Source: Catajapyx aquilonaris
Lineage: Eukaryota
Assembly (NCBI GenBank): GCA_000934665.2
Contig: JYFJ02004110.1
Coordinates: 1-34,860 of the forward strand
DNA: 34,860 nt
Reading direction: 5' to 3'
Shown piece after piece: positions 3,100-34,860 of the stretch (positions are counted from its first letter, which is position 1; each line of letters opens with the position of its first letter). Position numbers and translations under genes: made by a program. The notes under the pieces were generated by a model that did no database searches, had not been told where the DNA came from, and worked only from the letters and a program-made list of their open reading frames with translations.

Positions 3100-4947
3100 G
3101 ATTCCTCACCACACCCCTCGGGACCGACTGGTTAAGGTGGAGCGAACGCCCCCTCCTCCTTAAAAACCTGAGTGAAAAGCTTCCAGCTGGTACAAGGTTG
3201 CCTGCTTTACATGTGGCAGAGTTGCCACCTGGTGTCACACAGTACCCAAAATCCCAAGCACCAGTCCGCAACCATGACGACATCCATAAACCCGCGGTAT
3301 AAGCAACTTGTGCTGCAGGATCGGCGGGTAGATGGATCGGGCGGTAAATGGGAGGGAGAACGGGCCGTTTTAGAACAACCGTAGGTGGCGCAACACTTCT
3401 CGCGGTATACCGGAGTCAAAACCCGCCGTTTTCCATATACCGTGACTGGTGCAACCGGCCATTAATCTATATAAGAATAATGTTGGTTTTTAGTTTGTCT
3501 TCTGGGAAAAGTCTGTTATGTTTCTTTGTTTGCAAGAAAAATGGATATTTTTTTGGACTGTTGTTTGTTTAGCCATGCACGGATAATCTGCACCCAGATG
3601 ATCGGGAGTACAGTCTATTTATAATCAGTATTTATTGGGTAATGACTTGACTCGACACTGACTGAGTATTAATTTTGCCCATTTTCTCATTTACAGGTTG
3701 TGCAAGTAATGTATGTGCTGTCAAAGCCCCAGACAATGCTGCCAGTGTGGCAGCAAGCTTACCAACTGATCCTTGGTTTTTGTTGGACACACTCTGAGCT
3801 TACTACCTGCCAGATCAAGAAACTGGATGCTGGAGGGTGGTTCCAGAACTGACATTGCCATATGTCAACATAGAGAGTCAGCGATCTTCGTCCTTTGGTC
3901 AAGCCTTCTTCTAGAGTTCCACCTGAATTAACTAACAACCTATTGATATGATACCTACCCTGCCTTGCTCCAGTGATGTTCCCTTCTGCAAGCAGATGCC
4001 TGCCTGGTTTCCATGCAATTCCAATCTACAGTCCTTGCTAACAACAAATGCTTGACAAAAAAGGAGACAGATCCTGAGAACAACTAACACTTTGTAAAAT
4101 CCAGTGGACTTGGTTTAACTTCTTACCAAAGGTTTTGACATAGCATGTTGCTTTAGCCATGGTAGCCATGGTAGCCATGGTTTACTGGTAGTACTTACCA
4201 CTTTCAATGAGTTGTGTATGTCAGAGTTGACTTGAGCCAAAACGAAGAGAGAACCATACTGGAGGACTGAGCAGAAGGACTTGGAGGAGCAACATGGAGA
4301 GAGAGAGAGGCCTTTGGGACAATGGGGAAGGGAAGGGCTTCAATCCCCCAACCATCAAGAGATCCCTTGCGGGATGCTGGCGGGGACAACGTGAGGGTGG
4401 CAGTTGGGAAGAAGACCCAGGGGCCTAATCCACGCCTTCTCCTTGTTCAAGACAAGATGCAACACACCATGTTGCTGCCTGTAAGGCTCACGTCTCCTCA
4501 TGTACCATTAAATAACAAGATTTAATCCAAGTTGGCCAGCACATGAGACGAGCTGCAGCAGCATCTGCATTGGGGTCAGGTATCACCTTTGGCTACATGT
4601 TGAGTGTGAAATTTCCTGCTTACTCACAAAACTAGTATCAATGGGAGGTCAGTGGCAGTGACTGACATGACCTCTTGTCTTCAAGGTTGACCAAGCAGAC
4701 ATGAAACACAGCTTGTTCTGGGTTCGTGATTCCCATCTGCGTTTGTTTTATCATTTAAGCAAGGGTCAAGAACAACCCAACCTCCATATGCCAAATGTGG
4801 GTTCAAGAGTTGTCCCACCTGTGTTTTTTTCCACCCCAACGCCGCCTGCCGGCACCTTTCGCAGCTCTTCTCGCAGAGCACTGGAAACTCGGCTCTTTCC
4901 AGAGTCCATAAGAATCCAGCCCTAAGTTGATAAAATTTCTCCTTCAA

Positions 4948-5215
4948 TCACTTGGCTCGTTTTGCAGATACGGCTTTTTTTGGCGGGACAGCAGAATGCT
5001 GCACTTGAATGATATCATTGCAATTATATGAATGTCTACTTTGTGATGTGGAAGTCTCCATGGAATGTACTTTATGAATATGTTTGCACAGGTGGTTGTT
5101 TTCTGGACACTCACACCTGTACTTGTTATGAGCACCCGAGAGTGAATTTATATACATGGGAATTCTGAACCCGGAGGACATAATTAGACCTTTTGTTTTC
5201 CAATGGGGGAAATGT
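4948..5215 (-). pseudogene. SWIM zinc-finger fragment, probably from a MULE-type transposase C-terminus
   Basis: YRCECPENNHLCKHIHKVH fits the SWIM CxC-xn-CxH pattern. Flanking sequence is not recognisable. Confidence 0.6.
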
Positions 5216-7879
5216 TCCCTGCTCTCACTTAGTCCTTGCTGTTTGCAGTTGCAGCACCAGTTACAACTGGTGCAGTAGGGTGTCATGTACGAGCAGCTGG
5301 CTGGCCGTCTGGGGTGGTTGTAGTGGATGCGTGTCCACAGCCTGCGCCTCCACGGCTTCGGTGCAATTGCCTGCGCCAGCCTGAACATAGCCCTAAACCT
5401 CCTGTCTTGCTGCCTGTTTAGCGTCCACTTTTCCGTTTTTCTGCCCTTCTTTGTGTTCTGCAATTGGTGGACAGCACGTTAGTACATGCACTGTACGTAG
5501 CCTAGGTACATTCTGTTGTTGGACTGGAGGGGCTAGAGCAGGGGTTTTAGCTGCAGGGAGGACAATCTGGCCCATACATGGGCCTAATAGCCCTGGAAGT
5601 GGGGCCGGTGGCATTCGCTGCACCACCGGTGCCGCTTGACCCATAATTGTTGTGTGTGGGACAACGTTGATTCAGAAACCAAGCTAAAAAGACAGAACAT
5701 GTAAAATTTTATGATTGTTTGTACCACATGACTCATCAGCTAAATTTGGTATGCATTTGCTGGGTTGGTGTGACAGTTTCTTATTTGTGGTAAGAGTTAC
5801 TTTTAGATACACATTCCCACACTACAATCACTTGTCAGATATACCACGACACAGCCATTAAGCTAATCTTATCTTGTGCGATCAAGTTCTCATGCGTGGG
5901 ACATGGGTCATGCATGTATTTGACCGGCCCTTGCAGTCATGATACCCCTGGCCAGGAAGAGGCTCCAGCTTGTGGTTTCGCAGCCAAAGCTGCTGCCGCC
6001 ACTTCCCCTCTTCACTTCTCCTGCAGCAGCCTCATATATCTTTCCCGGATGGCCTTCCTTACCCGAAAAGTGCAGGGTACATGGTGGTGAATCCACAATC
6101 CTACTTATTTGTTAAAGTATTATGCCATTTTTGCAGGCAAAAGGTTTGCACATGTTTCAAGCATGATAATTTTTTTTTCCTGTCATTTTTGACTAAAGTC
6201 GCATGGGCAGGTGTCATATTGTCATTCTCTATTGCCCTGAATCGTGCTTTGCCTTGGATCTGCAGCAGGGCTCCTTTTTAGTGAAAGTATCACACATGTG
6301 GTGTGGGGTACAAATTGCACAGGTAAAAAGTGGAAAAATATCTTAAAATGGCACAATGGCTAGAAGCAGCTGGTTTATTGGAGAAATGGTTTGGTTACTC
6401 TGGTTGGTGTTCAACCTGTAATCAGAAGATATGGGGTTTCTTTCGCTTATGAATGACCTTGTTTGCATGTCATTTGTTGCTTCCTCATCTCATTACCCAA
6501 GTAATCCCTGAAGTTCTTGAAATTATCAATGCCCTTGTCAATCATGTAGAGCACTTCACATTTGTTTGTTGGTCAGATGGGACTTTTTGTTCCCATGCCC
6601 ATGGGATAGCGTGAGCCATGCTGGCGTACCTGGTGAATGTGTGGGACAGCTTCTCCCAGGGACACAATTTGCGTTGTGGAACTTCCACTCGTAATCTCCC
6701 AGGCGATGCAATACTTACTAAACTTGGAGGAACGACATCTTTTGTGGGTAACCCGAGACAGGGAAAATGTCGTGCAAACTGAGTCTTGCCTTATTCCAGA
6801 CTCCACTACTTCCCACGAGGATGTGTATGAATACACAGCGTAAGTTTCGAGGGGTACATGCGTCATCCACTGCTGGATCAAGCAGATGCATGGTCATGCT
6901 GGCAGAATTCCACGTTTCCTCTCGCATAAGCTCGATATGGCACTCAAATGTTTCTTTTCTAGGAAACTGAGGAAAAGGACAACCTTCTTCCTTCCATGAT
7001 TTCTCTATCGACAACAAAGGGTACTTCGGCCCTGTACCTTTGGATGAATTGGTTATTTATTTATTAATGATTAAAAACTGCCTAATTGAGTCCAGCCCAC
7101 AAAATTAGCAATGGCAGAAGGGCCATAAAAAATTTGCTGGCGTATCCCACAAGTGTTGCAAAAAAGGAAATCTTGAGATTCCAAACAGCTGGAGCACACC
7201 TGTTCTGAAACTACCAGATTCACCCCATGCAACCACGTGTTCTTGACTGGTGGTGGTCCTGTGTGGTCTCCATATCAAAGAAAATGTAGAGAAAGCTACA
7301 GTTATTGTTGTTACTTCCCCTTCCTCTCGGGCTGCCCACACCACGGTGTCAGCAGATGCTCAGGCACATACTTCTCCAGTGTGTGCAGCTCGGGTGTTGT
7401 ATACTTCTGGATGTAACAAAGGTGACCTCCCATCACCATGGTCTTACACGCCTTCCAGTACCTCTCCCCACAACGGTGTCAGGAGCCTTGTTTTCTCTTC
7501 CACATATCCACTAGCATTGAACATTTTTTACACATAAATAGGCTTTCGCGAAGGGAGAGACTGGTTATACCGACTATTACTACCACTAGTATTAACCTAA
7601 GGTAAACAGCAAGTCAAATCCTATACTTAAAATGCTCCACATACATATTGGAAACAATTATTGCGACGAAAGTGTAAGGCAGCTTGGGGTACGTGGTGCG
7701 GGAAGTGGAATATTGTAGGGGATAAGGAATGGTGTGACATGGTGGATAAATTAGGATCTCGAAGCGAGGCATGCGAGATTAGGCTGGCATTAAAGCAGCA
7801 TTCTTTTCCTCTACTTGCTACAACAAATTTTCATCTTTCTCCCTCGTCCTCGCTGATTGGTAGAATGTATGTCCACAGA

Positions 7880-8345
7880 GAGTGCTTTGCTTTCGCAATA
7901 GACCTTGTCTTCACTAACAACCTGAGCATGAACACTTGAAGGTCGCGGCACTCCTCCCACCAGTCGGCGTGCCCTGCTTCATTGGTAGCCCGCTCCAGCT
8001 AACTCCAAAGCTTCTTCATTATTCCCCTTTCTAATAGCCATTTTCGATAACCTAACCTGAAGGCTTTCAATTGGGTATGGACCACTGCTGCCAACTTCTC
8101 TGACGGCGCGATGCGACCTCCACATATGTATGTTTATATGCCTTGCATGATACATATGTCATCTCCCGGGTGTTGCTGGCTTCACTGGACGTGTCCTGAA
8201 TCATAGCACGACACTTGCTGCACTTGCTGCGGGCAAGGCATTTCCTAGCCATATAGCCGCTGAAATATTGGCATGCGTTGACATCTGCGATACCTGCCGA
8301 GGTCTTTTTGACTTGGTTGATGATGTCATCCTGCGCCTCTTCCAT
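7880..8345 (-). pseudogene. P-element/THAP9-type transposase C-terminal fragment
   Basis: NACQYFSGYMARK...CSKC...VSCKAY, then after a frameshift GGRIAPSEKL...KGIMKKLWS*...WWEECRDLQVFMLRLLVKTR. Matches the Y-x-[AS]-GY, CxxC and GG-x-x-x-PS pattern of P transposase C-termini. Confidence 0.7.
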
Positions 8346-8378
8346 GGTGCGTGCTGTACCCCGAGCTGTATTGTGTCC

Positions 8379-8436
8379 CTCTGACTGGTATGGCGGCTTC
8401 AATTCTCCTGCAACTGTGCCTCTTCTCTTTTAACCT
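8379..8436. repeat. Dispersed 58-bp direct repeat, copy 1 (copy 2 at 21580-21637)
   Basis: CTCTGACTGGTATGGCGGCTTCAATTCTCCTGCAACTGTGCCTCTTCTCTT is identical for 51 bp, followed by one mismatch and then TAACCT. Flanks are unrelated. Confidence 0.95.
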
Positions 8437-8537: not shown

Positions 8538-9445
8538 CTATGAAGGGACTAACCTCTGCAGTTCAATGGTGCAGCGAGACGTAGCAGTTCCTTGGGGCTG
8601 AACTGCTGACACCGCAGCTGTGTCCAGCATGTTCCATGCCGACAGGTTCTGTTCAGTGCTGCTCTGCTCCTGATGCTGGATGTTGGTGGATGTGTTGGTG
8701 TCATTTCCGCCCAGATTCTGGTGCTCCATCAACTTGGCCCTCTCCACCATTACAGAGAGGATATCACGTTTGACCCTTGCTTCAACGGACTCTCCCCCAG
8801 CAAACCCCAGCAGCTTAAAGCGTGGGTCCAGGAAAGTGCAGAAAGACAACGTCTTTGAATTTTGCACATTCCCGGTGCGCTTTTCTAAGGCCGCCTGGAG
8901 AGATTCCACCAATTTCTGGAGCAAAGGACTCTCCCACATCTTCTCCCGTAATGTCTGGCATACATCTGCCAGCCCATTCACAAGGACGATCACTTGGGAT
9001 CCTGAAACGTATTTCTCTCCGCAAAGATGCCTCGTTACCTCCTCAAATGGCATCAGAATGTCACAGAGATGATGACAAAGGTGCCACTCTTCGGCGGAGA
9101 TGGTAGGCAGCGTCACGTCAATCATCCCCATTGTGCTACGCAGAGGTTTCTCCAGCTCCACAAATCTCCGCAGCATGTAGAAGACTGAATTCCACCGCGT
9201 CTGAACTGACTATCATCCTCTTTGGTGGGTTTATTCCGAATCTACTTTGATTGTCTTTAAGTTTCACATATGAAACTGTGCTCCTCTTAAAGTGACCCAC
9301 GATGATTTTCACTTTTTCTATTATTCCCTGCACAACCCCGAGTGAATCCTGCATGACCAGGTTTAGAGTGTGGGCAAAACATCCAAGGTGCTTTTCTTTC
9401 ATGTGATCCTTGATCGCAGATGTAATATTTGTTGCGTTGTCTTTC
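8538..9445 (-). pseudogene. hAT (Ac/ZBED1-like) transposase internal fragment
   Basis: DNATNI, HLGCFAHTLNLV, IVGHFKRS, a frameshift near 9210, then TRWNSVFYMLRRF, EEW...LMPFEEVT, LDPRFK. Truncated at both ends. Confidence 0.92.
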
Positions 9446-9451
9446 TGCAAG

Positions 9452-10405
9452 TGCTTTCAGGAACCACGTACTATTATCGGCTGCTCTCACCTGGAGGTCC
9501 GAGTAGCAGCTGTTTGACTTGAGTAGAGAAACTGTGACAGGCTTGCATTTGATGATGTAACATACCTCACCACGTGTGAACGCTGTGTACCCTGGTTCGT
9601 TGCTCATAAGGGCATAAGCGAACTCATCAGGGTTGATGTAGGCCAGGGATTGCAGTGTTCTTAGTGTTTGCTGCCGATCCTGGCACTGTTGCTTCTTCAT
9701 AATTCCGTACATTCGCCCTATCTCAGATCCCAGGTGTTGCTCAAGGAATACGAACTTTGAATTATAATAATAAGCAGCCATATTGACATTCAAGGTGAGG
9801 ATCGACTGTTTTTTGAAGATGAACCCATTAGTCCCCTCAGGTATCAGAACTAGTTGGGGATGCTCCATACGAAAGACATGTTGATTGCACATCACGTCAC
9901 CATCACCCATCTCAACAGCGAAGGCCGTCCCATCGTCTTGGCCAATAGCAACCTTCCTCCCCTTCTCGGGATCAATCACCCTCACCTCTCCTTCATACAG
10001 CACATCAATTGATTGCCCATCACAGAGCGTGGGTGCTTGTGCAGTCCAGAAGGTCTATCCCAAGAAATCGTCCATGCAGTTCTCTTTCTTGTATTCACAC
10101 CTTGCTCCAGACGGCAGCACTGCCTCGTTCTTCTTCCGGTCGATGGTGATCCAATAATCCGAAAGGCGGATTGTTAGATAAACCTCAACAACCACATTCT
10201 TGTACACATACCCGTCAATATTGTAGTCACCTCCAGAGCATTCACCAGATGCTGAGTCGGTATGTCCCACGATGACAAGGGAGGCATGTGTCGTGATGTT
10301 GAGCGGGCTGTCGATAGGACGCAGGCTGGTTCAGTAGCGATAGACTCCAGTCCTAGTAAACATCTCGCATTCGTGTCGCGTATGTTCCTTTCTGTACGTA
10401 TTGAC
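9452..10405 (-). pseudogene. Endogenous viral element: chuvirus-like (Chuviridae/Jingchuvirales) glycoprotein fragment
   Basis: One frame with two internal stops: ...GECSGGDY...YKNVVVEVYLTIRL...LPSGARC...CMDDFLG*TFW...DVLYEG...MEHPQL...AYYYNSKFVFLEQH...QQC...LAYINPDEFAYALM...PGYTAFTRGEVCYIIKCKPVTV...CYSDLQV. Motif order matches chuviral G proteins as I know them. Confidence 0.85.
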
Positions 10406-14570: not shown

Positions 14571-14593
14571 TGCTTACTAATGTAATAATAATA

Positions 14594-15643: not shown

Positions 15644-15646
15644 AAA

Positions 15647-23520: not shown

Positions 23521-24206
23521 CTTTGCTTGTTCTTTCCGCACTTCAAACGTGAGAAGTCCACCCGATTGGACGCCAGCGCCACGCCGCAGCTCGGCTATCG
23601 CGCGCACCATTTGTGAATTGCCTTTCGCAAGTTTTCCGCTCTCCACACGCGGCGCTGGCGCAACGCAGAGTGTGTGAAGCAGCCTTTTGAGCAGGCAGAT
23701 TGAGGGGTGTGGTGGGAAAACATGAAACCCACATTTTTGTCATTTTCACTAGGCAACACGGGCTCGAGACAACGCCATCTTTTTTTACATTTCTCGGCTG
23801 ACAAATGACGCTCATATCGAAACAAACTAAGATGAGACCAAGCCTTTAGACATTTCTGAACATTTCAGCCAGCGAAATGGCTAACAACACTAGGAACACG
23901 AGGAACATAAACATTAATGTAAGTTAGGATTTTGCTGGCATAAAAATAGTACAATCCGACACGATCAAGTAATTTGGGTTAAAACAACCAGTACGTATTA
24001 GTGGAATGCTGGAATTTATTTTCACAAAATATATGTAGGAAACAATGAAAGAAATGGAACAATATTACATTTACTTAATTTAATCTATGACTAACGCACC
24101 ATTACATTATTAGAGAGATACATTGAAAATGTTCATTTTAGGCGATTTTTCAAAATTGGACAAACACGGGGGTTTCAGCTGAATCTAACCACCTTCTGAC
24201 ACTAAG

Positions 24207-24720
24207 TTATCTTAAGAACGCCCTTATAAATTGGTTGATGTCCCCGCGCCACACCGGGCAAGGTATATGGCTAGCTCGCATTACTTCCACACAAGTGTGA
24301 CAAATAACATGGCCACAGTTAGTTCCGTAATTCCAAAATCGAATTAGACATACGCTGCATGAATCGACCGGTCGATCGGGGATCATCATGGTCGTCGTCG
24401 TCATCGATAACAATAACATCATCGGCACCACCACCCCCAACTGCAGCGGCAAGAGCAGCAGCACCACCAACCGGACCGGCGGCGGCGGTTGAAGCAGCAC
24501 CAGCTGGATGGATAAAAGACAGGTGTGAAACAATCCTGCACTTTCTTTACATGCTGGTAGGTCCAGTACCCTCAATGATTATATGCTTACCGTTTATTTG
24601 CTGATTCAAATATGATCGAACTGTGTAGCATGCTCTGAGGAGATATTCCTTTAGCCTGTTCGCATACTCCCCACTGCTGAATCGTTGTTGAAGATTTCAG
24701 ATGTTTGTCTGTTGGCGAAT
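24207..24720 (-). pseudogene. Degenerate C3HC4 RING finger preceded by a possible MULE transposase C-terminal helix
   Basis: CSVC...CGHVICHTC...CPVWR (last Cys mutated to Trp). Upstream, LQQRFSSGEYANRLKEYLLRACYTV resembles MULE C-termini. The RING is well supported, the MULE link is weak. Confidence 0.6.
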
Positions 24721-24859: not shown

Positions 24860-25425
24860 ACTCATTGAAAAGCATCACGTCCAACCTACAGGCAGAAGTC
24901 CTTAATTCTAGAAAGCTTACTTGTGGCACCTATCACTTTCAACCCAGAACTAACTCTCCTATCAATCTCCCCATCCATTCTACCATTACTCTCAAGGGCA
25001 CAACCCAGGTATACAAACTGGTTGGGCTGCTCAACCAGTTTTCCTCGTACCTGCAACATACAAGGAGAAACCTGCTGTCCTCTCAAATACCAATACCTTA
25101 GTAGTAGTAGTAGTAGTAGTGTTTTATTTCCTGAATGCTTACAGCACATAGGAAAGACATCTCTCCTCACATTACTATATCAGCATGTTCCAATTTTGCA
25201 ACAACTTGTTCAAAATACTTATACCAATACCTTAGTCTTATCTACGTTAATCCTCATACCCCTCTTTTCACGAACATTATCTAACTTGCATAGGATCAAC
25301 TGTAAATCAGCCTCACTCTCCGCCAGAAGGGCAGAATCATCTGCATGCAGCAAGTGACTAACTAACTCATCACCAAACTGCACTCCTACACCTTCAATCA
25401 TTGTGTGACGCCAGGTTCTAAGGTA
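24860..25425 (-). pseudogene. RTE-like LINE reverse transcriptase fragment
   Basis: LVSHLLHADDSALLAESEADLQ...GMRINVDKTKVLVFER (after removing the 25103-25220 insert)...VEQPNQFVYLG...GEIDRRV. Confidence 0.9.
25103..25220 (-). mobile_element. 118-bp 5'-truncated retroposon insertion with (CTA)n tail
   Basis: Perfect 16-bp TSD ATACCAATACCTTAGT at 25087-25102 and 25221-25236, with a (TAG)n run at the left end. Excision restores KTKVLVFER. Confidence 0.88.
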
Positions 25426-25529
25426 GTACCACCTAGGTCGCAAGGATGTCGCGGAATGTCGCCTCGGTGTCCGACCATGATTCTTGCCGCTGTTCGGGTA
25501 CCCCCATGAACAACCAGATTCAGCCACCT

Positions 25530-26255
25530 CGACTGGTTTTCAGGCACTTGGTTAGTTTTTCCTCCCCTGAGGCACAGGCTGAGTTGAAGTCAGCAACTAA
25601 GACATCTGAGGCAGGCATGGATGACTGCAGTGTGCGAAGGACAGGTGAGGACTGATCGAACGGAAAGCTGTCGAACTCAATCATGCATGCGACAAGGTCC
25701 TGTACACACTGCTCATCTTCGCGCATCCGTTTGGGGCGACATTCTGTGTGCTTCATCTCGACGTTCTTTCGGTTGGCCAACTTGTTAGTTGCGGCTCTGA
25801 TTCGGGCAGCATACGGGCGAGGTACTATATCGCTCAAAAACATTTTCGCGCACTTCCTCTCTGGCGGTTCCGTTAAAAATGTTTGAAAATGTAAGTATCC
25901 CGGGAAATACATTGCCAATTAAAGGGTTCAGTACGATGGTTGTACAATTCATTGCAGTTCTACCGACCTTTTACGCAACTGCCACGTTACATTTCTACCA
26001 TGTGGTGATCGTCTTGGATTTCAGGGTCAGGATGGCGTCGTAACGCCAAACCAATGTCAGAATCGGAATCTTCGTGGTCGATTAACCCGAAAAAGTGCAA
26101 TTGTACATGATTCTATGTGCTTTGGATCTCAAAACTTACACGGTCATAAAGGTGCCGACGGCCATCTTTGATTTGAGGCCGTGGGAAAAAATTCTGGAAT
26201 TTTTCGGAGGGACATGGAGGCTTAATATGTTCCGATAGGTCCTAGGAACCCAACC
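25530..26255 (-). mobile_element. Fragment of an unclassified DNA transposon: coding piece (25530-25850) joined to terminal-type sequence (25900-26255)
   Basis: HTECRPKRMREDEQCVQDL...PFD...LRTLQSSMPAS...DFNSA...GEEKL resembles a widespread invertebrate transposon-associated ORF family. GCCATCTTTGATTT and CGTCTTGGATTT subterminal-like motifs. Superfamily not assignable by eye. Confidence 0.45.
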
Positions 26256-26309
26256 GGCTAGTCAAACCTTCCTTGCCATAGAATGGTCACGGAATATCGG
26301 ATTATGACT

Positions 26310-26495
26310 CTACTATTTAGCAAAAGAAGCTGCACCATAGCCATGTGTCCATTGGAAGCAGCCTGGTGCAGTGAGGTCTCACCATCATTATTGACTTCCA
26401 GCTGGGCACCCTTCTTCAGCAGCAGTTTCACCATATCAGTCAGTTGCTGCGACACAGCAAGATGAATAGGAGTCTCACCATCTCCGTTGGTTGGT
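26310..26495 (-). pseudogene. Ankyrin-repeat fragment (two repeats)
   Basis: DGETPIHLAVSQQLTDMVKLLLKKGA and NNDGETSLHQAASNGHMAMVQLLL fit the ankyrin consensus. Confidence 0.88.
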
Positions 26496-26529
26496 GCAAC
26501 TTGTTGATCTTCAGCCAGCATGATCTTAA

Positions 26530-27026
26530 AGGGACACTCCACTCAAAATGCAAGTTGGACTCTAAAAATCGGGCAAGAAATCCTGATTCCGAGTGTATAA
26601 GCAGTTTTTCTGAGAGACGAACGGTAAGGCCAGGGCGAGCCGTCAAAGTTAGGCAATTCGAATCTGCCGCAAAACAGCAGCGCCTCTCCCGGGACTGGGC
26701 AGAAATTGGCATATTCCTGCGCCATCTTGATCCACGCCATGGTCCGCGCCATCTTTGGTCCGTCCCACAGGTTTATCCCGCCACCTCTTGACCCGACCCG
26801 ACTTTCAGTACTGAAACACTTTCGCCTAGCGCCCAGTGGCGGCGCTCACGGCGGTGGCGGACTGGGTTGGCGGGGCAGCTCATTAGCAGACGACGCAAAT
26901 TATGAGTCTTTAACGCCTCGTCCTGGCTTTTCTGTTCCGCGTAGAAAAAAACCGATTGCACCTTCGGAATCAGGATTTTTTGCCCGATTTTTAGAGCCCA
27001 ACTTGCATTTTGAGTGGAGTGTCCCT
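26530..27026. mobile_element. Kolobok-type MITE (497 bp)
   Basis: 63-bp TIRs starting AGGGACACTCCACTCAAAATGCAAGTTGG (2 mismatches). TTAA TSD at 26526-26529 and 27027-27030. AG termini favour Kolobok over piggyBac (CC). Excision restores the frame ...LLATDFKIMLAEDQQ. Confidence 0.92.
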
Positions 27027-27952
27027 TTAAAGTCAGTGGCCAGGAGATTTGCCTTCTTGCATACCACTCCTAGATATGACTCGGGCTGAGGAAAACAAAA
27101 TTATTAGAACTTTAATTTACACTGCATTAAATGTTTCTTGACTGTTATTGACTTACCTATTCGGCTTTGGGCGTCAGGTTTCTCCCCCAATCTCAGCAGC
27201 AGTATGACAAGGGCAGCATTGACCTTAATTTTGTCATATTCAGTCTCAGGATATTTTCCCTCCATGGCATGTAAATCTCCCATGATTTTTCCGATTTCTG
27301 TGGTCTTCTTGGACTTCAGCAATTTTGGTACGAGAAGCCCAATTCCTTTCAGGAAGTGTTCCTCCAAATGCTCAATGTTGCCATTGAGCCGTTCAAATTC
27401 CTTGATTATCGGAAAAAATACATGTATATTTTACAAATACATTGCATGATTTCATTCCAATCAACAGAAAACCCACCTCGCTTCCCTGGAATATGGCTGG
27501 ATAGTTCTGCCGCAGCTCCGTTAACGACACTCCCTTCTCTATCATTCCTCGGCGATCTGCCATTGTGGCCGCCATCCGGAATGATATTTTTTCTTTGTCT
27601 GGTGACCTCTGTCATTTAAAAATGTCAACATTTACTGGCATGTCTTTAAACCTGAATAAAAAATACTTGAAAAAGCAAAAACTCCCACTTCGCATCTCTT
27701 TCCGCATAAAGTCTTTATGCTTCAATATAGAGGCTTCGTCTTCATCGCCTTCAGATTCTGGAACCTTCTTGCTGTAAGAAATGCGATGATCCCCCATTGT
27801 CATTGAGGCTTGTTTCTTTGGTTGACGCTCTTTCTTCGTTTGATAAGGCTGGAGGGCACCAATTTTTCTCAGCCTCACACGTTCATTTCTGAACTTTGCA
27901 CTAAGGGAGGACTTCCAATAATTCTGCAAATGAATTTTTATAGTTAGGCAAG

Positions 27953-28509: not shown

Positions 28510-28790
28510 TAGTCAACCGTCAACAGTCATCAAACGCCAACTAATCCCCCGCGCATGGAATGAATGTCTTAGTCTGAAACTGACATTGTTCAATGTCACT
28601 GCACATGTTCTGAAGGAATTGTGCACATTCGTTATTTTCCCTCCCAAGCCCTCCTGGACTCCTTTTTGTCACTATAGGTAGAATTGAAACAATCAAAAAG
28701 TTGGTCCATTCTGCTAAATCCACTTGCCCGTGGCTTCTGCACCCTGCAATACATTGAACTATGCCATAGCCCCCATCGTCTTGCCAACAC
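28510..28790 (-). pseudogene. P-element transposase internal fragment
   Basis: Across frameshifts: AEATG..., SRMDQLFDCFNST...RRAW, QFLQNM, FIPC. Matches the D-x-LFD-x-x-NS motif of P transposases. Confidence 0.6.
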
Positions 28791-28839
28791 CTGCTGACTT
28801 TGGAGCACTCCAGGGAACCTCAGGTGTGCCGGTCATCAT

Positions 28840-29115
28840 CCGCAGCCGCTTCCTCATGGTCCGTGGCAAGTCCACAATCCTCACCAGGTGGTGCGTTCGG
28901 ACCAGCGACCTGGCCAGTTCATTCAAGAATGATGATCTGCCTGTCTTCCACTGTGTGGCCATGCTGTACAACACGAATGCGTTGATCCCCACCACATTGA
29001 GCAGGTGGAAGAAGAGAGCCAGCGGCCACCTGCGGGTCCACCGGCTGACGGTGTAGTTTCCCACCATTTGATCTACAACTCCTGCTTTTGTCTGGTTGTA
29101 AAAAGTCACGTAAAG
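28840..29115 (-). pseudogene. piggyBac (PGBD4-like) transposase C-terminal fragment
   Basis: FYNQTKAGVVDQMVGNYTVSRWTRRWPLALFFHLLNVVGINAFVLY...RSSFLNELARSL. Confidence 0.92.
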
Positions 29116-29867
29116 CCTCATCACTTCTCTCTAAAGTTCCATGTACTGTGCAGTATAGCGCATGAGGGATGACATTTAAAAAAACAAGTCACACTGTTGA
29201 CAATTAGAATAATTCAATCGTCACAGGATATTGCCATGTAAAGAAAATAGTAGTCACATTGTTGACTCTTAAAAGCAATTAAAGAATTATATACCGAACG
29301 TAATTTAATTATTACTGGTCGTTTTGACTAGTAATATGCCTACATGCCAATATGTTTACAAGGAGGTCGCAAGACAGGCTACAGTGATCAATTCAGGCCC
29401 TGCTGGCGTTCCGTTGTAATAAAATTTCATCTGTGGTGTGCGAATGTAATATGAAGATGTTATGATATGGGGATGTGGTGATGATGATATAAGTAGGCAA
29501 CAAAATAAACGTATTCTCTTATGTGTATTCAATATATTATAACCGTAGCATGCAATCACGATCGTTCATGCTGTAATTACTGTCTTAAACTCCCTATGCG
29601 CTGATAGACGTGTCATTTATGGTTTTCATTGTCACATTTATTATGCTTATTCAAGTAAAATCGTACACATTTTTATACCACTACATGCAGTTATATGCAA
29701 CTGGCCAGTTCTCCTTACATAATTAGATTATACCCTTTTATTGAATCCTAAGCACAGGTATATTCAAAAATCGGGGGTAGCAGGCTAGTTTTTTTTGTGA
29801 TACACTCTCCATCTGAAAAGAGAATCATGTTTAGACACCCATCTCTTGCTAGCTGCAAGTAATCTTT

Positions 29868-30491
29868 CCTGGCCGCTAAAATGCCAAATGCATTTTCAAC
29901 AGTTCGCCTTGCTCGGGACAGCCGATAATTGAAGATGCGTTCCATCTTGCCCAGATCTTTTTTGGAATATGGCCGCATCATGTTTACTTTCAGTGGAAAG
30001 GCCTCATATGCCAAAAATACATGTGGCAGAGTTAACGTACTGCCTGCAAGGTCGGTTGGTGGTAGAGGCAGTTCAGCATTCAGGATGGCCTGGCCCATGC
30101 TGCTCCGACCGAAAACGCCCCCATCACTCTCTCGGCCATAGGCACCCACTTCAATAAATGTAAATGCATACCCTGCATCTGCCACGGCCATGAGGACGAT
30201 GGAATGGAACAATTTGTAATTATAGAACATTGATCCTGATTTTGGGGGAGGGGGGCAACCAGAGCTACGTGCTTTCCATCGATGGCTCCCACCCAATTGG
30301 GAAAATTCCATAATTGCTGGAAGTCCCTCGCTAGTTTCCTCCATGCCTCTTCATTGGGGTTTGGCATGACCTCTTCCTGGAGGGCTGTCCAGAGGCTTTG
30401 GCAGGTGTCGTGGATAATAGTGGCCACTGTGCTACGGCCGCAGCGATAGCTAAACGCTATGCTTCGCACAGCATCCCCCGTTGCCAAGAAT
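29868..30491 (-). pseudogene. Second PIF/Harbinger transposase (different lineage from 1544-3099), frameshifted and truncated
   Basis: After a cAG acceptor: FLATGD...WNFPNWVGAIDGKHV, frameshift, SGSMFYNYKLFHSIVLMAVADA...GRESDGGVF...AYEAFPL...IFNYRLSRARRTVENAFGILAAR. The second catalytic-region Asp reads as Tyr. Confidence 0.93.
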
Positions 30492-30516
30492 CTGCAGTAG
30501 TTGTTAGAGATAAGAA

Positions 30517-31530
30517 TATTTATTTATTTATTTATTTCATACCCCGTTATCCGGCCTGGGGCCGTTATTGGGGGGACACCACCGCCATTACCATCAGTTA
30601 CATAATTGCATATATTTGACAAATTTACAGAAAAAAGAATACAAAGAGAATGCTTGTTGCTTAGTTAGGTTGTCGAACACATAAGGCAGAAGTTCCATAG
30701 GAAGTACTGATAGGTTATACAAATAGGCTTTGCGAAGGGTTTTAAATATAGGACAGTCGTATAACAAGTGATAAGGGGATAATTTTTATTTAATTTACCC
30801 CGTGTTCGAGCCTTTGGCTCGTTTTTGATAAGGGGATAAGAGGGCATTGATATTACACCAGTCACAGACATCATCAGAAATAACTTGGATCGAGACACCC
30901 GATTTAATAGGAAGATATTTGGAGCCATTTCTTAGATTAGCTATCATACGCTGCCAATAGAAAGGCAATCCAAGTGTAAGATATGGTTCTAGTCCAAAAC
31001 TGAGTTTGATTTATTTATAATGATTGTATCTGTGAGCGTGCTCTAATTTGGTTAGCAGTTGTGTTTTTAGCTGTAGTTCCACTTTGGTGAGTAGTGATGG
31101 TAGATCTGTCAAGAGATCTTGCCAATCTAGCCCAAGAGATTCTCTTAGCGCTTGTCCAGACTTGCGCCAGTTTACTCTGTCTGGGGCTATGGCATAACTA
31201 TAGGCCATCCGTAGTATAGTATTATCCGGGAGTTTGTCAAATTTGATGATAAGTTTAGCCACAGATTTAACTAAATTTACTGTCAGCGGAATTTGGCCGG
31301 TTTCCAAGTAAACAAAATATTATGCGGTGTTTTTTTGGTAAAAGTAAAGGTTTTTTCAGAAAAAATAGCTGGACTTGGTTTATGACCTCAAACTGGGTTA
31401 AGCCCCATAGAGATAAGAATATGCGGACTATGGTGACTATGTCTAAAATTACAGGAAGACTTGCCCTTTCATATGTATATCTCAGTTTTGAACTAAAATT
31501 AAGTCTTCAATTACTTTCTGATTTGCCCTC
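30517..31530 (-). mobile_element. 5'-truncated LINE: ORF2 C-terminus, 3' UTR and (TAAA)n tail
   Basis: LWGL...NQVQLFFLKK...LETGQIPL...YLT...IANLR...VCDWCNINALLSPYHLLYDCPIFKTLRKAYL (CCHC motif restored after removing 30783-30825 and one TSD copy). 3' stem-loop at 30552-30564, tail at 30517-30537. Confidence 0.8.
30783..30825 (-). mobile_element. 43-bp retroposon 3'-end insertion (stem-loop plus tail only)
   Basis: Perfect 14-bp TSD TGATAAGGGGATAA at 30769-30782 and 30826-30839. Hairpin CGAGCC-TTT-GGCTCG at 30807-30821. Closely similar to the SINE 3' end at 438-462. Confidence 0.9.
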
Positions 31531-32079
31531 GTAATTGACTCAAGGTACTCTCATAAATGCATGCATTATAATTAGTGCAAGGACAAGAAAATAATACTGA
31601 AATACGTTACCGAAGGGTTATAGCCAGCCTTTCCGCTCTTCCGCTCGTCATCTTCCGTTGTTTCTTCGTCTGATGAGCTATCTATGTGTTGTGCTTTCTT
31701 GGCACGTTTTGCAGTCGTCTTCTTTCCACTGCTTTGTTTTGCTTGGCTTTTCCATTTTCTTCCTCTTCCCTCTTTGCTGCTTCTCTTCCACCAACTTCCT
31801 TTTCACTGGTGTATCTGTCTGAATGGTCGAAACCCTCTTCTTTCATCCACGGTTAGATTGTGTTCGCGGTCCTGCTGGCGGGAGAGGTCTAACTTTATCT
31901 GGAGTAAACGACTTTCTGCTTTCAACGACCCCTGAGGTACTCGGTCCATCAGATGAAGGTTCTGCTGATATTTAAGCGTTTAGGCCTATGCTGTTGCTCG
32001 ATTGAGGCTGACTTTCATTCGGGCTGGGTGGGATGACTGTTGCACATTGTGCTTCTTGAGTTTCATTGTCCAGGTTTGG

Positions 32080-32857
32080 GTCAAGGCGATCAGTAGCATA
32101 ACCTGGCGTTGAAAATAAAACCTCTCCAACTTATGGATAACATCATGCAGGAAGTCATCGGACCGCATCACCAGAACTTGAACCTGTGTGTAGTACTTAT
32201 GTGATGGCTTTAACATCCACATACCATTACTGTCCTTCTGCAGGCACTCAACATTGCTAATGTCGCCTTGTATCACTCTCTGATGCTCACATGTAGAGGG
32301 GCACTTAATTTCAATAAGAATGACTCCAGTGTCTCTCATTACTAGTCCATCTGGACTACAGCAAAGCCAAGGATGTCTTGTACTAATATAATGTGTGTTA
32401 CCTGTTTATGGTTGGTAGTTACATCTACTGTGCCAAAGCAATTGGTTTTCCATCACTATACCATACCTCATGGCCTTGGTGGATCTTTTCTCGCAAGAAC
32501 CTCTTTGCAAGAATTTCATAATCTTTTCTTCGTGTTTTCATGTCATGGGCCCTTGTGCTAGCTGATATCCTTACCCTCCTATGTGATGCCCACAGACCCC
32601 TTTCATCCAAATGTTGTGACCTTGTCTCCATTGCTACAGTCCTAACACCTGGAGAACTGAGGCAGATCTTTGACTGGTAATACTGCAGCTCTGAGGCTGT
32701 CAAGTCTTTTCTAAAATCATACACAACTATGTTCAGTTTCACATCTGTATCACTTGGTGGAACTGTGGTCCAAAACCCACAAGTGATCCCATCCCTGAAT
32801 CCCTGCTCCAAAACATCAAGGACATGTTCGTTGCGTTTAGTCTCAGCAATGTCTGCA
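32080..32857 (-). pseudogene. YqaJ-like exonuclease gene fragment (ISL2EU/Harbinger-type accessory gene)
   Basis: ETRSQ...LWASHRRVRISAS, PWLCCSPDGLV, LIEIKCP, LKPSHKYYTQVQ, KLERFYF. PD-(D/E)xK motifs, with frameshifts and deletions. Confidence 0.85.
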
Positions 32858-32947
32858 GCTTTCCAGTTGCAGCCCAGCCACCTTCAAAGTTTGCCCCTGA
32901 GACTTGTTGATGGACATGGCAAAGTTGAGCCTTACAGGAAATTGGCA
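32858..32947 (-). pseudogene. 90-bp sliver of a PIF1-family helicase, most likely Helitron Rep/Hel
   Basis: Manual translation in a frame absent from the ORF track: CQFPVRLNFAMSINKSQGQTLKVAGLQLES. Confidence 0.88.
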
Positions 32948-34394
32948 TCAGCAGTGAGACGGGCCTGACGTTCTACCTCACTCTCCTGCCTCTTTTTTTT
33001 TCTTCGAGTAGCTGGTAGCTTGAGCACTCAGACGTACCTGGTGTTCTTCCTCAGTCTCTTGGTCCCTCCTTTTGCCGGACACTGCGTGTATGCGATGAGT
33101 TTTACTGCATGATATAGAGATGCTGACGCGTAAACCAGTGCCGAAACCAGACGCCATTGTCGCCGTCCGACTTTACGCCCGGGCCCGGCTAAACAGGCGG
33201 GAGGGGCGGGAGCCGGGAGCACCTGCGATCTGTACCGTGATCTGTACCCATAATGGCGGCCATCTCGGAATTGCCATCAGCGCCTCGATAGGCCGCCGCG
33301 CTTGCGAATAGGTTGTGACGATTTTTATAACCAGCTTTATGACATGGTTGTCATCTACCTGTGTGTCATACTGATGGTCATGTAATGAACTAAAAATGTC
33401 TTTTCCCTATAGCAGTTCTAAAACACTGCTGATAACGTTTCTCAATATAATATCCATACGTCCCTGCTTGCTTCTGCTTCCTGGAGTCTTGCGTTTCCTT
33501 CCTTGCGATGGTGCCGGAATCTGGTATGACAATGATGGCTGCAGGGGGGATGGGTTGTTGGTGCTAACAGTTACGCCTGATAATAACCCCCCTGATGGCC
33601 CCCCGATGGTATCTCCACCTTATCGTGGTGGTGGGGTTTGCGTTTCTCCCATGACCCCAAGAGCTATACCGGCGGTAGCTTCGTCTACTGGTAGGGCCGG
33701 ACAGGTCTTTGGGATAGGAGACAGACTGCCTGCGGTGGTCACGCGATGTCTACATCGAGCACATCACTGGAGTGAGGCAGTTCTAACTTTGCCTGTTTGT
33801 TTATGTAAAACGTCCCCCCCATGGGTGTCATAATGTCTTTTGTTTTATTACAGCTGTGAACCATTTTTTAAATATGGCATAGTGTTTTGCTGGGTTTACA
33901 TGATTGTGTCTATATGTGGCATGTTGAATTCTGTTTTTAAAACATTGTTTGCAGTTTTTATGTCGTTATGACCATCAGAATTTGAGATATTCAAGTCAAA
34001 GACATAAATAAAAACCAGTCTTTCCTCTCTTCTTTTTCCTCTTCGTTTCTCCCTCCATCTGTCCCACCTTTGCTTCTTCTTACAGCCAGATAGCCACAGT
34101 TGCTTTGGCTTCTTCCAAATAAACCAAACCAAACCTGACAATGGTGAAGTAAGCAGCATGGGATTGGGGACAGCTTGCAGAGATGGGCTCTGGTTGATCA
34201 TGCCATCCAAACCAGGCAATGGTCTAGCCATCCGTAGCAGATGATTGGAGGAAGCAGGGATAAGATATCCACGAGGCAGGCTAGGTGGCAGTGTAGACAG
34301 CACAATGGAAGGCTTTTGTGGCGCTGGGTATCTTATGACACCAGGGCAGACACGAGGTTGTGTGCTTGCAGGAGCTGACACGCACAGGGCCTTG

Positions 34395-34545
34395 GAAACA
34401 AGGCTTGTGTTGCTCCGGCTGGTTGAGTGCAGAGCACTGCTGCAGGCACCACAACGGAGACCTACATCCACTTGTCTGACTACATAACCTGCAATGTATT
34501 CTGTCACGTCCTCTACGTACACAGAGAGGGAGCTGCTTAGTTCTA
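34395..34545 (-). pseudogene. THAP9/P-element transposase C-terminal fragment
   Basis: YVEDVTEYIAGYVVRQV...CGACSSAL...SLVSK. Confidence 0.75.
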
Positions 34546-34554
34546 TTCACTTAC

Positions 34555-34690
34555 CACACTTGTAGTACTTCACTATTGCATTTTCAGGGAGTACCCAGAG
34601 TTTTTCATCTGGCTTCTCCTTCTGCACAATATATTGCTTTTGTGGGATTGCGGTAAGGAGGCCACCAACAAGAAGCAAGAGCTTCTATAC
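34555..34690 (-). pseudogene. Isolated exon resembling the N-terminal CWWPP region of DUF4806-type accessory proteins
   Basis: Bounded by ttttAG and GTAAGT. Reads SCWWPPYRNPTKAI, frameshift, KEKPDEKLW. Confidence 0.4.
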
Positions 34691-34860
34691 CTAAAATTGG
34701 GTAATGGGGAAAACTCATAATAAATACCGGAGCAAAGAAACTATGGAAAACGAAAATGTTGGTGGGGGAGTGGGGGGATGGTGGTGTGGGGGGAATCAAG
34801 GTAGAAGGGATTTGGAGCTGGCAGAGCGGCTCCCGGCAAATGCGCGCGGCCAAAATTCGG

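What the first reader, a model, noticed from the sequence alone, without database searches (positions are those of the whole stretch)
3465..34860. Accessory genes are also antisense-only, suggesting orientation-aware acquisition or purging of sense pieces (a memory-array-like locus)
Known: Harbinger, ISL2EU and many CMC-like elements often encode the transposase and the accessory gene (Myb/MADF, YqaJ and others) on opposite strands, so a whole-element insertion would leave some coding sequence in each orientation. Seen: both transposase pieces and accessory pieces (MADF, YqaJ, SAMD3-like, DUF4806) occur only on the minus strand, as 0.1-1.6 kb fragments abutting each other without TIRs or TSDs (for example G/hAT at ~9450, piggyBac/P at ~28800, PIF1/YqaJ at ~32858). 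Inference: either sense-oriented portions are selectively deleted after insertion, or short fragments are captured with fixed polarity. Either route gives a compact, low-redundancy catalogue of invaders, conceptually like a spacer array.
Basis: inference. Interest (0 to 1): 0.8.

Follow-up and report, generated by a model that had tools for sequence, protein, structure and literature searches.

The report
One-strand graveyard of transposon fragments
A 33-kb stretch of an animal-type genome is packed with broken pieces of many unrelated transposons and one viral gene, all pointing the same way, which is what a known kind of small-RNA defence locus (a one-strand piRNA cluster) looks like.

Summary
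The core observation holds. A symmetrical Pfam scan of all 530 stop-to-stop ORFs of 40 aa or more (257 minus, 273 plus) gave 12 minus-strand ORFs above Pfam's gathering score. They form 9 separate pieces: two unrelated DDE_Tnp_4 transposases, a Monjiviricetes-type viral glycoprotein, hAT, Mutator, MADF, ankyrin, piggyBac and YqaJ. Two weaker minus-strand hits (RING, LINE reverse transcriptase) add to this. No plus-strand ORF reached gathering. MADF and YqaJ are confirmed on minus; SAMD3-like and DUF4806 were not recovered on either strand. The pieces share no sequence with one another.

The best reading is a uni-strand piRNA-cluster-like transposon trap transcribed on the plus strand. That is a known kind of locus, and the "archive of invaders" analogy is already in print. 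No RNA data could be obtained, so transcription and small RNAs are inferred only.

The YqaJ piece lies 1.5 kb upstream of a co-oriented DDE_Tnp_4 piece, as one ISL2EU-type element with co-oriented genes would leave. The MADF piece keeps its start codon and a GT-AG intron, so it is not a short captured scrap. Interest is low to moderate.

The parts
1547..3105 (-). Harbinger/HARBI1-like transposase gene that looks whole. Exon 1 is ORF 2851-3105 with a Met. An intron follows, and exon 2 is open from 2467 to 1547. It lies left of the finding's start but has the same orientation.
   Evidence: DDE_Tnp_4 1.1e-32 (profile 1-158 of 158) and HTH_Tnp_4 6.6e-11; exon 1 ORF and an acceptor AG just before 2467.
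4951..5478 (-). 176-aa ORF with a SWIM-like CxC...CxH zinc knuckle, possibly a MULE-type piece. Unverified.
   Evidence: translation, motif read by eye (recalled). No Pfam support.
8070..8429 (-). 120-aa ORF with a motif like the C-terminal end of a P-element/THAP9 transposase. Unverified.
   Evidence: translation, by eye (recalled). No Pfam hit.
8541..9456 (-). hAT transposase middle part in two frames (ORFs 9139-9456 and 8541-9209). The N-terminal third is missing.
   Evidence: hAT-like_RNase-H at E 0.021, below gathering. hAT motifs read by eye. No PDB match.
9452..10303 (-). Fragment of a Monjiviricetes-type viral fusion glycoprotein (an endogenous viral element). It covers profile positions 133-413 of 653, is frameshifted, and is truncated at both ends.
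   Evidence: 1.5e-56 and 1.5e-16; depth 24, about single copy. No relatives found.
13385..14250 (-). C-terminal part of a second, unrelated hAT transposase.
   Evidence: Dimer_Tnp_hAT 5.4e-6 (profile 39-83 of 84); depth 123-242, about 5-10 copies; no similarity to the first hAT piece.
14337..15003 (.). High-copy non-coding repeat, about 600 times single-copy depth. Orientation unknown.
   Evidence: bin depth 15063 against 24-36 for single copy. No Pfam or Rfam hit.
15383..16543 (.). 1.16-kb element bounded by inverted repeats (36-nt arms, 92% complementary). No target-site duplication seen.
   Evidence: pair I2. Flanks read; depth 186-288.
18110..19213 (-). C-terminal part of a Mutator-like transposase with one in-frame stop.
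   Evidence: Mutator 2.8e-11 and 4.6e-8 (profile 242-357 of 357); depth 21-36, single copy.
20664..21170 (-). ORF with a weak C2H2 zinc-finger signal.
   Evidence: zf_C2H2_ZHX 0.0013 and zf-H2C2_2 0.064, both below gathering.
22733..23739 (-). 5' part of a MADF-domain gene: a start Met, exon 1 ending at 23346, a GT-AG intron at 23345-22903, exon 2, and a second donor near 22735.
   Evidence: MADF halves 1.2e-6 (profile 1-41) and 3e-7 (profile 44-84); splice signals and reading frame; no homologues found.
24210..24578 (-). RING-finger-like ORF, below Pfam gathering.
   Evidence: zf-RING_5 6.4e-5 (23.3 bits against a cutoff of 27.9).
24889..25539 (-). 3' part of a high-copy LINE reverse transcriptase (the ADD-box region and what follows it).
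   Evidence: RVT_1 2.5e-4, below gathering; motifs read by eye; depth 4800-13200.
26261..26542 (-). Ankyrin-repeat fragment that ends exactly where the foldback element starts.
   Evidence: Ank_2 2.1e-15.
26521..27035 (.). High-copy foldback or MITE-like element (164-nt arms, 76% complementary).
   Evidence: pair I1; depth 4345-20995, and a joint 26525->27027 at about single-copy depth.
28762..29130 (-). C-terminal end of a piggyBac transposase.
   Evidence: DDE_Tnp_1_7 2.4e-6 (profile 302-349 of 349).
29751..30523 (-). Second DDE_Tnp_4 (PIF/Harbinger/ISL2EU superfamily) transposase piece in two frames. It is only 23% identical to the first.
   Evidence: 4.1e-18; 23% identity, E 0.01; nearest Atlas clusters are DDE_Tnp_4/Plant_tran at 0.95.
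30597..31319 (-). ORFs that resemble the C-terminal end of a LINE ORF2 with its zinc knuckle. Unverified.
   Evidence: translations, by eye (recalled). No Pfam hit.
31989..32883 (-). YqaJ-type exonuclease gene piece in two ORFs. This is the accessory gene type of ISL2EU elements.
   Evidence: YqaJ 3e-6 (profile 82-142 of 150); eukaryotic YqaJ clusters at 0.92. PMC4482050 passages.
32846..32947 (-). C-terminal motif of a Helitron/PIF1-type helicase, 34 aa.
   Evidence: Helraiser (7lcc) residues 1415-1441 at E 0.002, then 14 PIF1 chains at E 0.12-0.9. No Pfam hit.
33899..34546 (-). 216-aa ORF that starts with a motif like the C-terminal end of a P-element transposase. Weak.
   Evidence: Tnp_P_element_C at E 0.24 only. 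Motif read by eye.

Best explanation
The window holds a uni-strand transposon trap of the piRNA-cluster type, at least from 1547 to its right end. Many unrelated mobile elements, and one RNA-virus gene copy, inserted here over a long time. They were then cut down by later insertions and deletions.

What survives is oriented so that a long precursor RNA read from the plus strand would be antisense to all of their genes. Such a precursor would be diced into piRNAs that guide PIWI proteins to the elements' messenger RNAs.

The one-way orientation would come from ordinary selection on whole insertions. Antisense insertions add useful guides. Sense insertions add none, and they bring their own splice and termination signals into the precursor, so they are lost.

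Shown here: the strand exclusivity, the diversity of families, the lack of redundancy, the truncation of the pieces, and the mix of old single-copy pieces with high-copy ones.

Inferred: plus-strand transcription, small-RNA production, and the role of selection.
For: (1) Strand exclusivity. 12 of 257 minus-strand ORFs reach Pfam gathering, forming 9 pieces, against 0 of 273 plus-strand ORFs. Relaxed thresholds added only minus-strand transposon hints: hAT-like_RNase-H at 0.021 and Tnp_P_element_C at 0.24. A Helitron helicase motif also lies on minus.

(2) Diversity. At least seven unrelated mobile-element kinds are present (two DDE_Tnp_4 lineages 23% identical, hAT, Mutator, piggyBac, LINE, Helitron helicase), plus a viral glycoprotein.

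(3) No redundancy. Self-tblastx finds no similarity between separate pieces, apart from one foldback and one stretch of about 100 nt.

(4) Truncation. The pieces keep only parts of their protein profiles: glycoprotein 133-413 of 653, Mutator 242-357 of 357, piggyBac 302-349 of 349, hAT dimerisation domain 39-83 of 84. They abut abruptly, for example at 9452-9456.

(5) Age mix. Single-copy pieces (depth 21-36: glycoprotein, Mutator) sit beside a LINE at 200-550 times that depth, and that LINE is also on minus.

(6) Longest-ORF comparison. The longest ORF is on minus in 17 of 23 windows of 1.5 kb and on plus in 6.

(7) Literature. flamenco is a uni-strand cluster with 79% of its transposons antisense and is described as a trap (PMC10495008, passages). 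Mosquito core clusters are mostly uni-strand and enriched for antisense non-retroviral viral elements (bioRxiv 10.1101/2022.08.22.504762, passages).
Against: - No expression evidence of any kind is in hand.
- AATAAA is not depleted on the plus strand: 24 on plus against 22 on minus in 3465-34860. A canonical long plus-strand transcript is therefore not favoured by signal avoidance.
- Some minus-strand genes look too well kept for a graveyard. The Harbinger-like transposase at 1547-3105 is open across two exons. The MADF piece keeps its Met and intron signals.
- Most pieces have no near-identical relatives in the genome, so guides made from them would have few present-day targets.
- The orientation of the non-coding repeats (14337-15003, 15383-16543, 26521-27035) is unknown.
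- About half of the window has no annotation on either strand.
- p of about 0.004 from 9 pieces is weak when very many windows were scanned.
- The organism is not known to me, so I cannot say that it has a PIWI pathway.
Confidence: 0.55

Rival explanations
1. The stretch is a long intron, UTR or non-coding RNA of an ordinary plus-strand gene. Purifying selection against sense-oriented insertions, which bring splice and polyadenylation signals, has left antisense ones only. No small-RNA role is involved.
For: An overall antisense bias of transposons inside genes, ascribed to purifying selection, is documented for LINEs and LTR elements (PMC3088655, passages). It predicts the same polarity as seen.
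Against: - No plus-strand exon-like coding signal exists anywhere in 34.9 kb: 0 of 273 plus ORFs reach Pfam gathering.
- The documented bias is partial, and that paper left DNA transposons out of its analysis. Here the pieces are mostly DNA transposons and the bias is total.
- AATAAA is as frequent on plus as on minus.
- This rival overlaps with genic or read-through piRNA clusters, so it is not fully exclusive.
Confidence: 0.15
2. Chance. This is an ordinary transposon-dense region whose detectable coding remnants happen to share one orientation, and it was noticed because very many windows were read.
For: Only 9 pieces pass Pfam gathering (two-sided p = 0.004). Some neighbours may be one insertion rather than independent events: the YqaJ and DDE_Tnp_4 pieces, and the MADF, RING and zinc-finger pieces. 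That would lower the effective count. The scan covers on the order of 250,000 windows (from the tool description of the search of earlier findings).
Against: Adding the weaker minus-only pieces brings the count to about 17 with none on plus, which gives p of about 1e-5. These are RING, LINE RT, hAT-1, the Helitron helicase, two P-like motifs, a second LINE end and a SWIM motif; several of them rest on motifs read by eye. The longest ORF per 1.5-kb window favours minus 17 to 6.
Confidence: 0.1
3. Either fragments are captured with a fixed polarity, or the sense-oriented portions of two-gene elements are selectively deleted after insertion.
For: Accessory-type pieces (MADF, YqaJ) are on minus like the transposase pieces. 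Truncated pieces abut without recognisable element ends at 9452-9456 and near 32860.
Against: - Only two accessory pieces were confirmed.
- The YqaJ piece lies 1.5 kb upstream of a co-oriented DDE_Tnp_4 piece, as a single ISL2EU-type element would leave.
- The MADF piece carries its own Met and an intact GT-AG intron. That argues against capture of short scraps and against RNA-mediated capture.
- There are no repeats or other punctuation between the pieces.
- I know of no mechanism for polarity-aware capture of DNA fragments (own knowledge).
Confidence: 0.05
4. The co-orientation was made in one step by a capturing element: a Helitron-type or template-switching retro-element that strings gene fragments together in its own orientation.
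For: A Helitron helicase motif lies on minus at 32846-32947. An RNA-virus gene can only enter DNA through reverse transcription (established knowledge), and LINE reverse-transcriptase pieces are present on minus.
Against: - Only 34 aa of helicase are left, and no Rep domain was found.
- The pieces differ about 1000-fold in genomic copy number, so the stretch is not one repeated unit.
- The intron kept in the MADF piece and in the Harbinger-like gene speaks against cDNA origin for those pieces.
Confidence: 0.05
5. Assembly artefact: a chimeric joining of repeats.
For: High-copy repeats at 14.3-15.0, 24.3-25.7 and 26.3-27.7 kb break the short-read contigs.
Against: Error-free DNA contigs cover 9001-10790, 10781-11425, 11501-12482, 12710-13234, 17055-19108, 19083-19606, 20837-21609 and 22605-23718 in three runs. 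All three runs are from one sample, probably the assembly's own source, so this is not independent support. An assembly error would not orient the pieces uniformly.
Confidence: 0.03

Closest known systems
flamenco-type uni-strand piRNA clusters (Drosophila)
   Same: Both are dense, nested, truncated transposon remnants with a strong one-strand orientation, many families, and few repeats of the same family. flamenco is read as a trap and archive of invaders (PMC10495008, passages).
   Different: flamenco is dominated by Ty3/mdg4 LTR elements and is 79% antisense. Here most pieces are DNA transposons (DDE_Tnp_4, hAT, Mutator, piggyBac, Helitron), with LINE pieces as well, and all detectable pieces point one way. 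No promoter, transcript or small RNA is shown here.
Mosquito core piRNA clusters carrying endogenous viral elements
   Same: They are uni-strand clusters enriched for non-retroviral viral fragments in antisense orientation (bioRxiv 10.1101/2022.08.22.504762, passages). This window has one Monjiviricetes-type glycoprotein fragment co-oriented with the transposon pieces.
   Different: Only one viral piece is present. The host is unknown to me. Read-through from an upstream gene could not be examined.
Antisense bias of transposons inside genes
   Same: The same polarity rule applies, and it is ascribed to purifying selection against sense insertions (PMC3088655, passages).
   Different: That bias is statistical and was reported for LINEs and LTR elements. 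Here it is total, it involves DNA transposons, and no plus-strand exon was found.
CRISPR spacer arrays
   Same: Only the concept is shared: a heritable, low-redundancy record of past invaders that is transcribed into guides.
   Different: There are no repeats between the pieces. The pieces are 0.1-1.1 kb rather than about 30 nt. No acquisition genes were seen. This is a eukaryote-type sequence with introns.
ISL2EU transposons (PHIS superfamily)
   Same: They carry a DDE/HTH transposase gene plus a YqaJ exonuclease gene and average about 4.8 kb (PMC4482050, PMC9179366, PMC4122938, passages). The window has a YqaJ piece and a DDE_Tnp_4 piece 1.5 kb apart on one strand.
   Different: No THAP domain, inverted repeats or target-site duplication were found. 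A LINE-like stretch lies between the two pieces. Whether they come from one element is an inference.

Membership tests
Uni-strand piRNA cluster | Dense, nested or truncated remnants of many transposon families | tested here: met
   at least 7 kinds of mobile element plus a viral fragment, each keeping only part of its protein profile, with no similarity between the pieces.
Uni-strand piRNA cluster | Strong bias of the remnants to one orientation | tested here: met
   12 of 257 minus ORFs (9 pieces) above Pfam gathering, against 0 of 273 plus ORFs.
Uni-strand piRNA cluster | 24-32-nt, 5'-U-biased small RNAs from one strand only | not testable with these tools
   One search listed no RNA run for this sequence.
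Uni-strand piRNA cluster | Long single-stranded precursor transcript starting from a promoter or from read-through of an upstream gene | not testable with these tools
   No RNA data, and the upstream flank is outside the window. The polyadenylation hexamer is not depleted on plus (24 against 22), which neither proves nor excludes it.
Uni-strand piRNA cluster | Host has a PIWI pathway (an animal) | tested here: inconclusive
   No genome is held and the organism name is coded. Spliceosomal-type introns and animal-type transposons suggest an animal. The Atlas neighbours of two pieces are mostly from arthropods, which is a weak hint only.
CRISPR-like spacer array | Short spacers separated by a conserved direct repeat | tested here: not met
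   no repeat family punctuates the pieces. The only direct repeats are one 69-nt pair and two small pairs near 15.2 kb.
ISL2EU element (for the YqaJ and DDE_Tnp_4 pair) | DDE transposase gene plus YqaJ exonuclease gene in one element | tested here: inconclusive
   both domains lie on minus, 1.5 kb apart. They are separated by a LINE-like stretch (read by eye).
ISL2EU element (for the YqaJ and DDE_Tnp_4 pair) | THAP domain at the transposase N-terminus; terminal inverted repeats; AT target-site duplication | tested here: not met
   No THAP hit in any ORF of 40 aa or more. Atlas neighbours show no THAP. No inverted pair flanks 29.7-32.9 kb.
Helitron with captured gene fragments | Rep/helicase protein and Helitron termini enclosing the captured pieces | tested here: not met
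   Only a 34-aa helicase motif is present. No Rep or longer helicase hit was found. The termini were not searched for.
Intron of a plus-strand gene with antisense insertion bias | Flanking plus-strand exons and a spanning transcript | tested here: inconclusive
   No plus-strand coding signal in the window. Exons could lie outside it.

The most novel reading that the evidence does not exclude
The total polarity is not just selection on whole insertions. In this reading the locus actively trims or rejects sense-oriented DNA at the scale of single genes within an element, or takes up fragments with a fixed polarity. Even two-gene transposons would then leave only antisense coding sequence, making this a eukaryotic invader archive with a directional acquisition or editing step.
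Probability: 0.05. Interest if true: 0.75.

Novelty: new member of a known kind. Interest (0 to 1): 0.3.

Why it matters
If small-RNA data confirm it, this would be a clean example of a uni-strand cluster built mainly from DNA-transposon fragments with complete polarity, and carrying an RNA-virus glycoprotein fragment. That would be useful for comparing how such traps form outside flies and mosquitoes. As it stands it illustrates a known principle.

Tried and rejected
- Whole genome: none is held for this window.
- RNA evidence: no RNA holder was listed for 9001-19000, so expression could not be examined.
- Homologue searches (search for homologous proteins): none found for the ORF 32428-32883 (the N-terminal ORF of the YqaJ piece) with 'longer', for the glycoprotein ORF with 'longer', or for the MADF ORF with 'near'.
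- Glycoprotein: no PDB sequence match and no relative in viral contigs.
- Plus-strand ORF 693-1064 was tested as a possible opposite-strand Harbinger accessory gene. It gave 1 hit at 4.8e-4 to a 5518-aa protein and nothing else among 1.84 billion representatives, so it was rejected as a recognisable gene.
- Relaxed Pfam scan (E <= 5) of 29 minus and 25 plus ORFs of 100 aa or more. The plus strand gave only unrelated weak hits (DUF6830 0.019, DMRT5_DMB 0.023, DUF6542 0.057 and others).
- The 162-aa plus ORF 24869-25354 is the antisense of the LINE reverse-transcriptase piece.
- Whole-window read-through Pfam scans were too large and were not run. A smaller read-through of 32860-33902 on both strands gave 0 families in 6 frames.
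- Two hAT-1 ORFs against PDB: nothing relevant.
- Rfam and tRNA scans for SINE heads: only a palindromic MITE-like match at 1260-1367, below gathering.
- Polyadenylation-signal asymmetry: none.
- Earlier findings of this scan: nothing by place, words or sequence.
- The relative orientation of the two genes in Harbinger and ISL2EU elements was not stated in the passages read. Figures and supplements of those papers were not seen and may hold it.
- Junction microhomology, and which part of each family consensus was kept, could not be examined without a repeat library for this genome.

Full report
WHAT WAS CHECKED. The finding claims that between 3465 and 34860 all recognisable coding remnants of transposons, accessory genes included, lie on the minus strand. 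It describes them as short fragments that abut one another without element ends. It infers polarity-aware capture or purging and a "memory-array-like" locus.

OBSERVATION. I listed every stop-to-stop ORF of 40 aa or more on both strands (273 plus, 257 minus) and scanned all of them against Pfam at E <= 0.01 under one rule.

On the minus strand 12 ORFs exceed Pfam's gathering score, forming nine separate pieces:
- a DDE_Tnp_4/HTH_Tnp_4 transposase (1547-2467, 1.1e-32)
- a Monjiviricetes-type viral fusion glycoprotein (9290-10054 and 10058-10330; 1.5e-56 and 1.5e-16)
- a hAT dimerisation domain (13385-13618)
- a Mutator-like transposase (18110-19213, two ORFs)
- a MADF domain in two halves (23302-23739 and 22733-22960)
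- ankyrin repeats (26261-26542)
- the end of a piggyBac transposase (28762-29130)
- a second DDE_Tnp_4 (29751-30350, 4.1e-18)
- a YqaJ domain (31989-32405)

A RING finger (24210-24578) and an RVT_1 match (25222-25539) fall below gathering. The RVT_1 match is backed by LINE reverse-transcriptase motifs that I read in two adjacent minus ORFs. On the plus strand none of the 273 ORFs reaches gathering. The two hits listed there (E 0.0075 and 0.0057) are of the same kind as five chance-level hits on minus.

A relaxed scan of the 54 ORFs of 100 aa or more added only minus-strand transposon hints: hAT-like_RNase-H at 0.021 for 8541-9209 and Tnp_P_element_C at 0.24 for 33899-34546. A 34-aa minus ORF at 32846-32947 matches the Helitron transposase Helraiser at E 0.002, followed by 14 PIF1 helicase chains at E 0.12-0.9. 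The longest ORF is on minus in 17 of 23 windows of 1.5 kb and on plus in 6.

Strand exclusivity is therefore real. It already starts at 1547, left of the stated start, and it runs off the right end of the window. Nine pieces on one strand give a two-sided p of 0.004. With the weaker pieces the count is about 17 to 0, but several of those rest on motifs read by eye. Because the scan covers very many windows, chance is reduced but not removed.

DETAILS OF THE CLAIM.
- MADF and YqaJ are confirmed. SAMD3-like and DUF4806 were not recovered on either strand.
- Low redundancy is confirmed. Self-tblastx shows no similarity between separate pieces except a foldback at 26.5-27.0 kb and a stretch of about 100 nt at 8351-8460 / 21552-21661. 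The two DDE_Tnp_4 pieces are only 23% identical.
- The G/hAT junction is abrupt. The glycoprotein match stops at 9452 (profile position 413 of 653), and a minus ORF with hAT motifs starts at 9456.
- "Without TIRs" is too strong. A 36-nt inverted pair bounds a 1.16-kb element at 15383-16543, and a foldback lies at 26521-27035. No target-site duplication was seen at the first.

DNA READS. Four DNA runs of one sample hold the stretch, and no RNA run was listed. Laying three of them, plus one run of another sample, on 9001-29000 gave a single-copy depth of about 24-36. The depths by piece were:
- glycoprotein and Mutator pieces: single copy
- second hAT piece: about 5-10 copies
- 14337-15003, 24342-25675 (the LINE) and 26343-27676 (the foldback): hundreds of copies

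Error-free contigs bridge eight stretches, including 9001-10790 across the G/hAT junction. They probably come from the assembly's own source, so they do not count as independent support. The very different copy numbers show that the array is not one repeated unit. Several joints at about single-copy depth hint at empty sites or a second haplotype. Their flanks are only 20-30 nt, so they are leads only.

THE ACCESSORY-GENE ARGUMENT. ISL2EU elements carry a DDE/HTH/THAP transposase gene and a YqaJ exonuclease gene and average about 4.8 kb. Harbinger elements carry a transposase and a Myb/SANT-type gene (PMC4482050, PMC9179366, PMC4122938; passages only). None of those passages states the relative orientation of the two genes, and I did not see their figures or supplements.

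In the window the YqaJ piece (32883-31989) is followed on the same strand by a DDE_Tnp_4 piece (30523-29751). A LINE-like stretch lies between them (by eye). One ISL2EU-type insertion with co-oriented genes, later interrupted, explains this. No THAP domain or inverted repeats were found, so membership stays open.

The MADF piece has a start Met. Its donor GT lies at 23345-23344 and its acceptor AG at 22904-22903, after a pyrimidine tract. This phase-1 intron of 443 nt joins the two Pfam halves in frame. It is therefore a stretch of an intron-bearing gene copy, neither a short scrap nor a cDNA.

WHAT IT MOST LIKELY IS. The anatomy matches a uni-strand piRNA cluster: many unrelated, truncated, non-redundant invader remnants, a viral fragment among them, old and recent pieces together, and all antisense to one putative precursor. 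flamenco is 79% antisense and is described as a trap (PMC10495008). Mosquito core clusters are mostly uni-strand and enriched for antisense viral elements (bioRxiv 10.1101/2022.08.22.504762). The archive analogy is in print (abstracts listed). In this reading the precursor is read from the plus strand, and the polarity comes from selection on whole insertions.

Everything about RNA is inferred. Points against:
- There is no depletion of AATAAA on plus.
- Two minus-strand genes are rather well kept.
- Many pieces have no close relatives left in the genome.
- About half the window is unannotated.

RIVALS. The main rival is a long intron or non-coding transcript of a plus-strand gene with ordinary antisense bias (PMC3088655). 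It predicts the same polarity, but usually only a partial bias, and no plus-strand exon was found.

VERDICT. This is a probable new member of a known kind of locus. The decisive test is strand-specific small-RNA mapping, which I could not run.

Noticed in passing
window 1547-3105 (-): A Harbinger/HARBI1-like transposase gene looks whole. Exon 1 has a Met (ORF 2851-3105), an intron follows, and exon 2 is open for 307 codons with the full DDE_Tnp_4 profile. No Myb/MADF partner gene was detected nearby on either strand.
   Followed up: partly
window 9452-10303 (-): A single-copy fragment of a Monjiviricetes-type viral fusion glycoprotein (Pfam 1.5e-56). It is frameshifted and cut at both ends. 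No relative was found in the protein collection, in PDB sequences or in viral contigs.
   Followed up: partly
window 22733-23739 (-): The MADF gene piece keeps a start codon, a canonical 443-nt GT-AG intron inside the domain, and a second donor site. It may belong to a fairly recent or even live gene copy (depth 2-3 times single copy).
   Followed up: partly
window 26521-27035: A high-copy foldback or MITE-like element starts exactly where the ankyrin fragment ends. A DNA contig at about single-copy depth joins 26525 to 27027 with 6 shared letters. This may be an empty site, which would mean a recent insertion that is still polymorphic.
   Followed up: no
window 13291-25859 (joints): Several contigs at about single-copy depth skip 46-1462 nt of the window (for example 15109->16546, 22634->23689, 13291->14302). 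This hints at a second haplotype or a paralogue with indels. The flanks are only 20-30 nt.
   Followed up: no
window 15383-16543: A 1.16-kb element is bounded by 36-nt inverted repeats (92% complementary) that begin with CAGTGG. It is present at about 8-12 copies, and no target-site duplication is seen at its flanks.
   Followed up: partly
window 1259-1368: A perfect 23-nt palindromic hairpin element matches the plant MITE-derived MIR1120 model on both strands, below gathering (41 bits against 86). It is probably a Stowaway-like MITE.
   Followed up: no
window 8351-8460 and 21552-21661: This is the only direct repeat between distant parts (69 nt at 96% identity, same orientation). It encodes the same short peptide at the start of two otherwise unrelated minus ORFs and may be the end of one repeat family.
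   Followed up: no
window 693-1064 (+): A 124-aa plus-strand ORF has a coiled-coil-like tail and lies convergent with the Harbinger-like gene. It has no real homologue among 1.84 billion representatives, so it is probably not a gene.
   Followed up: yes
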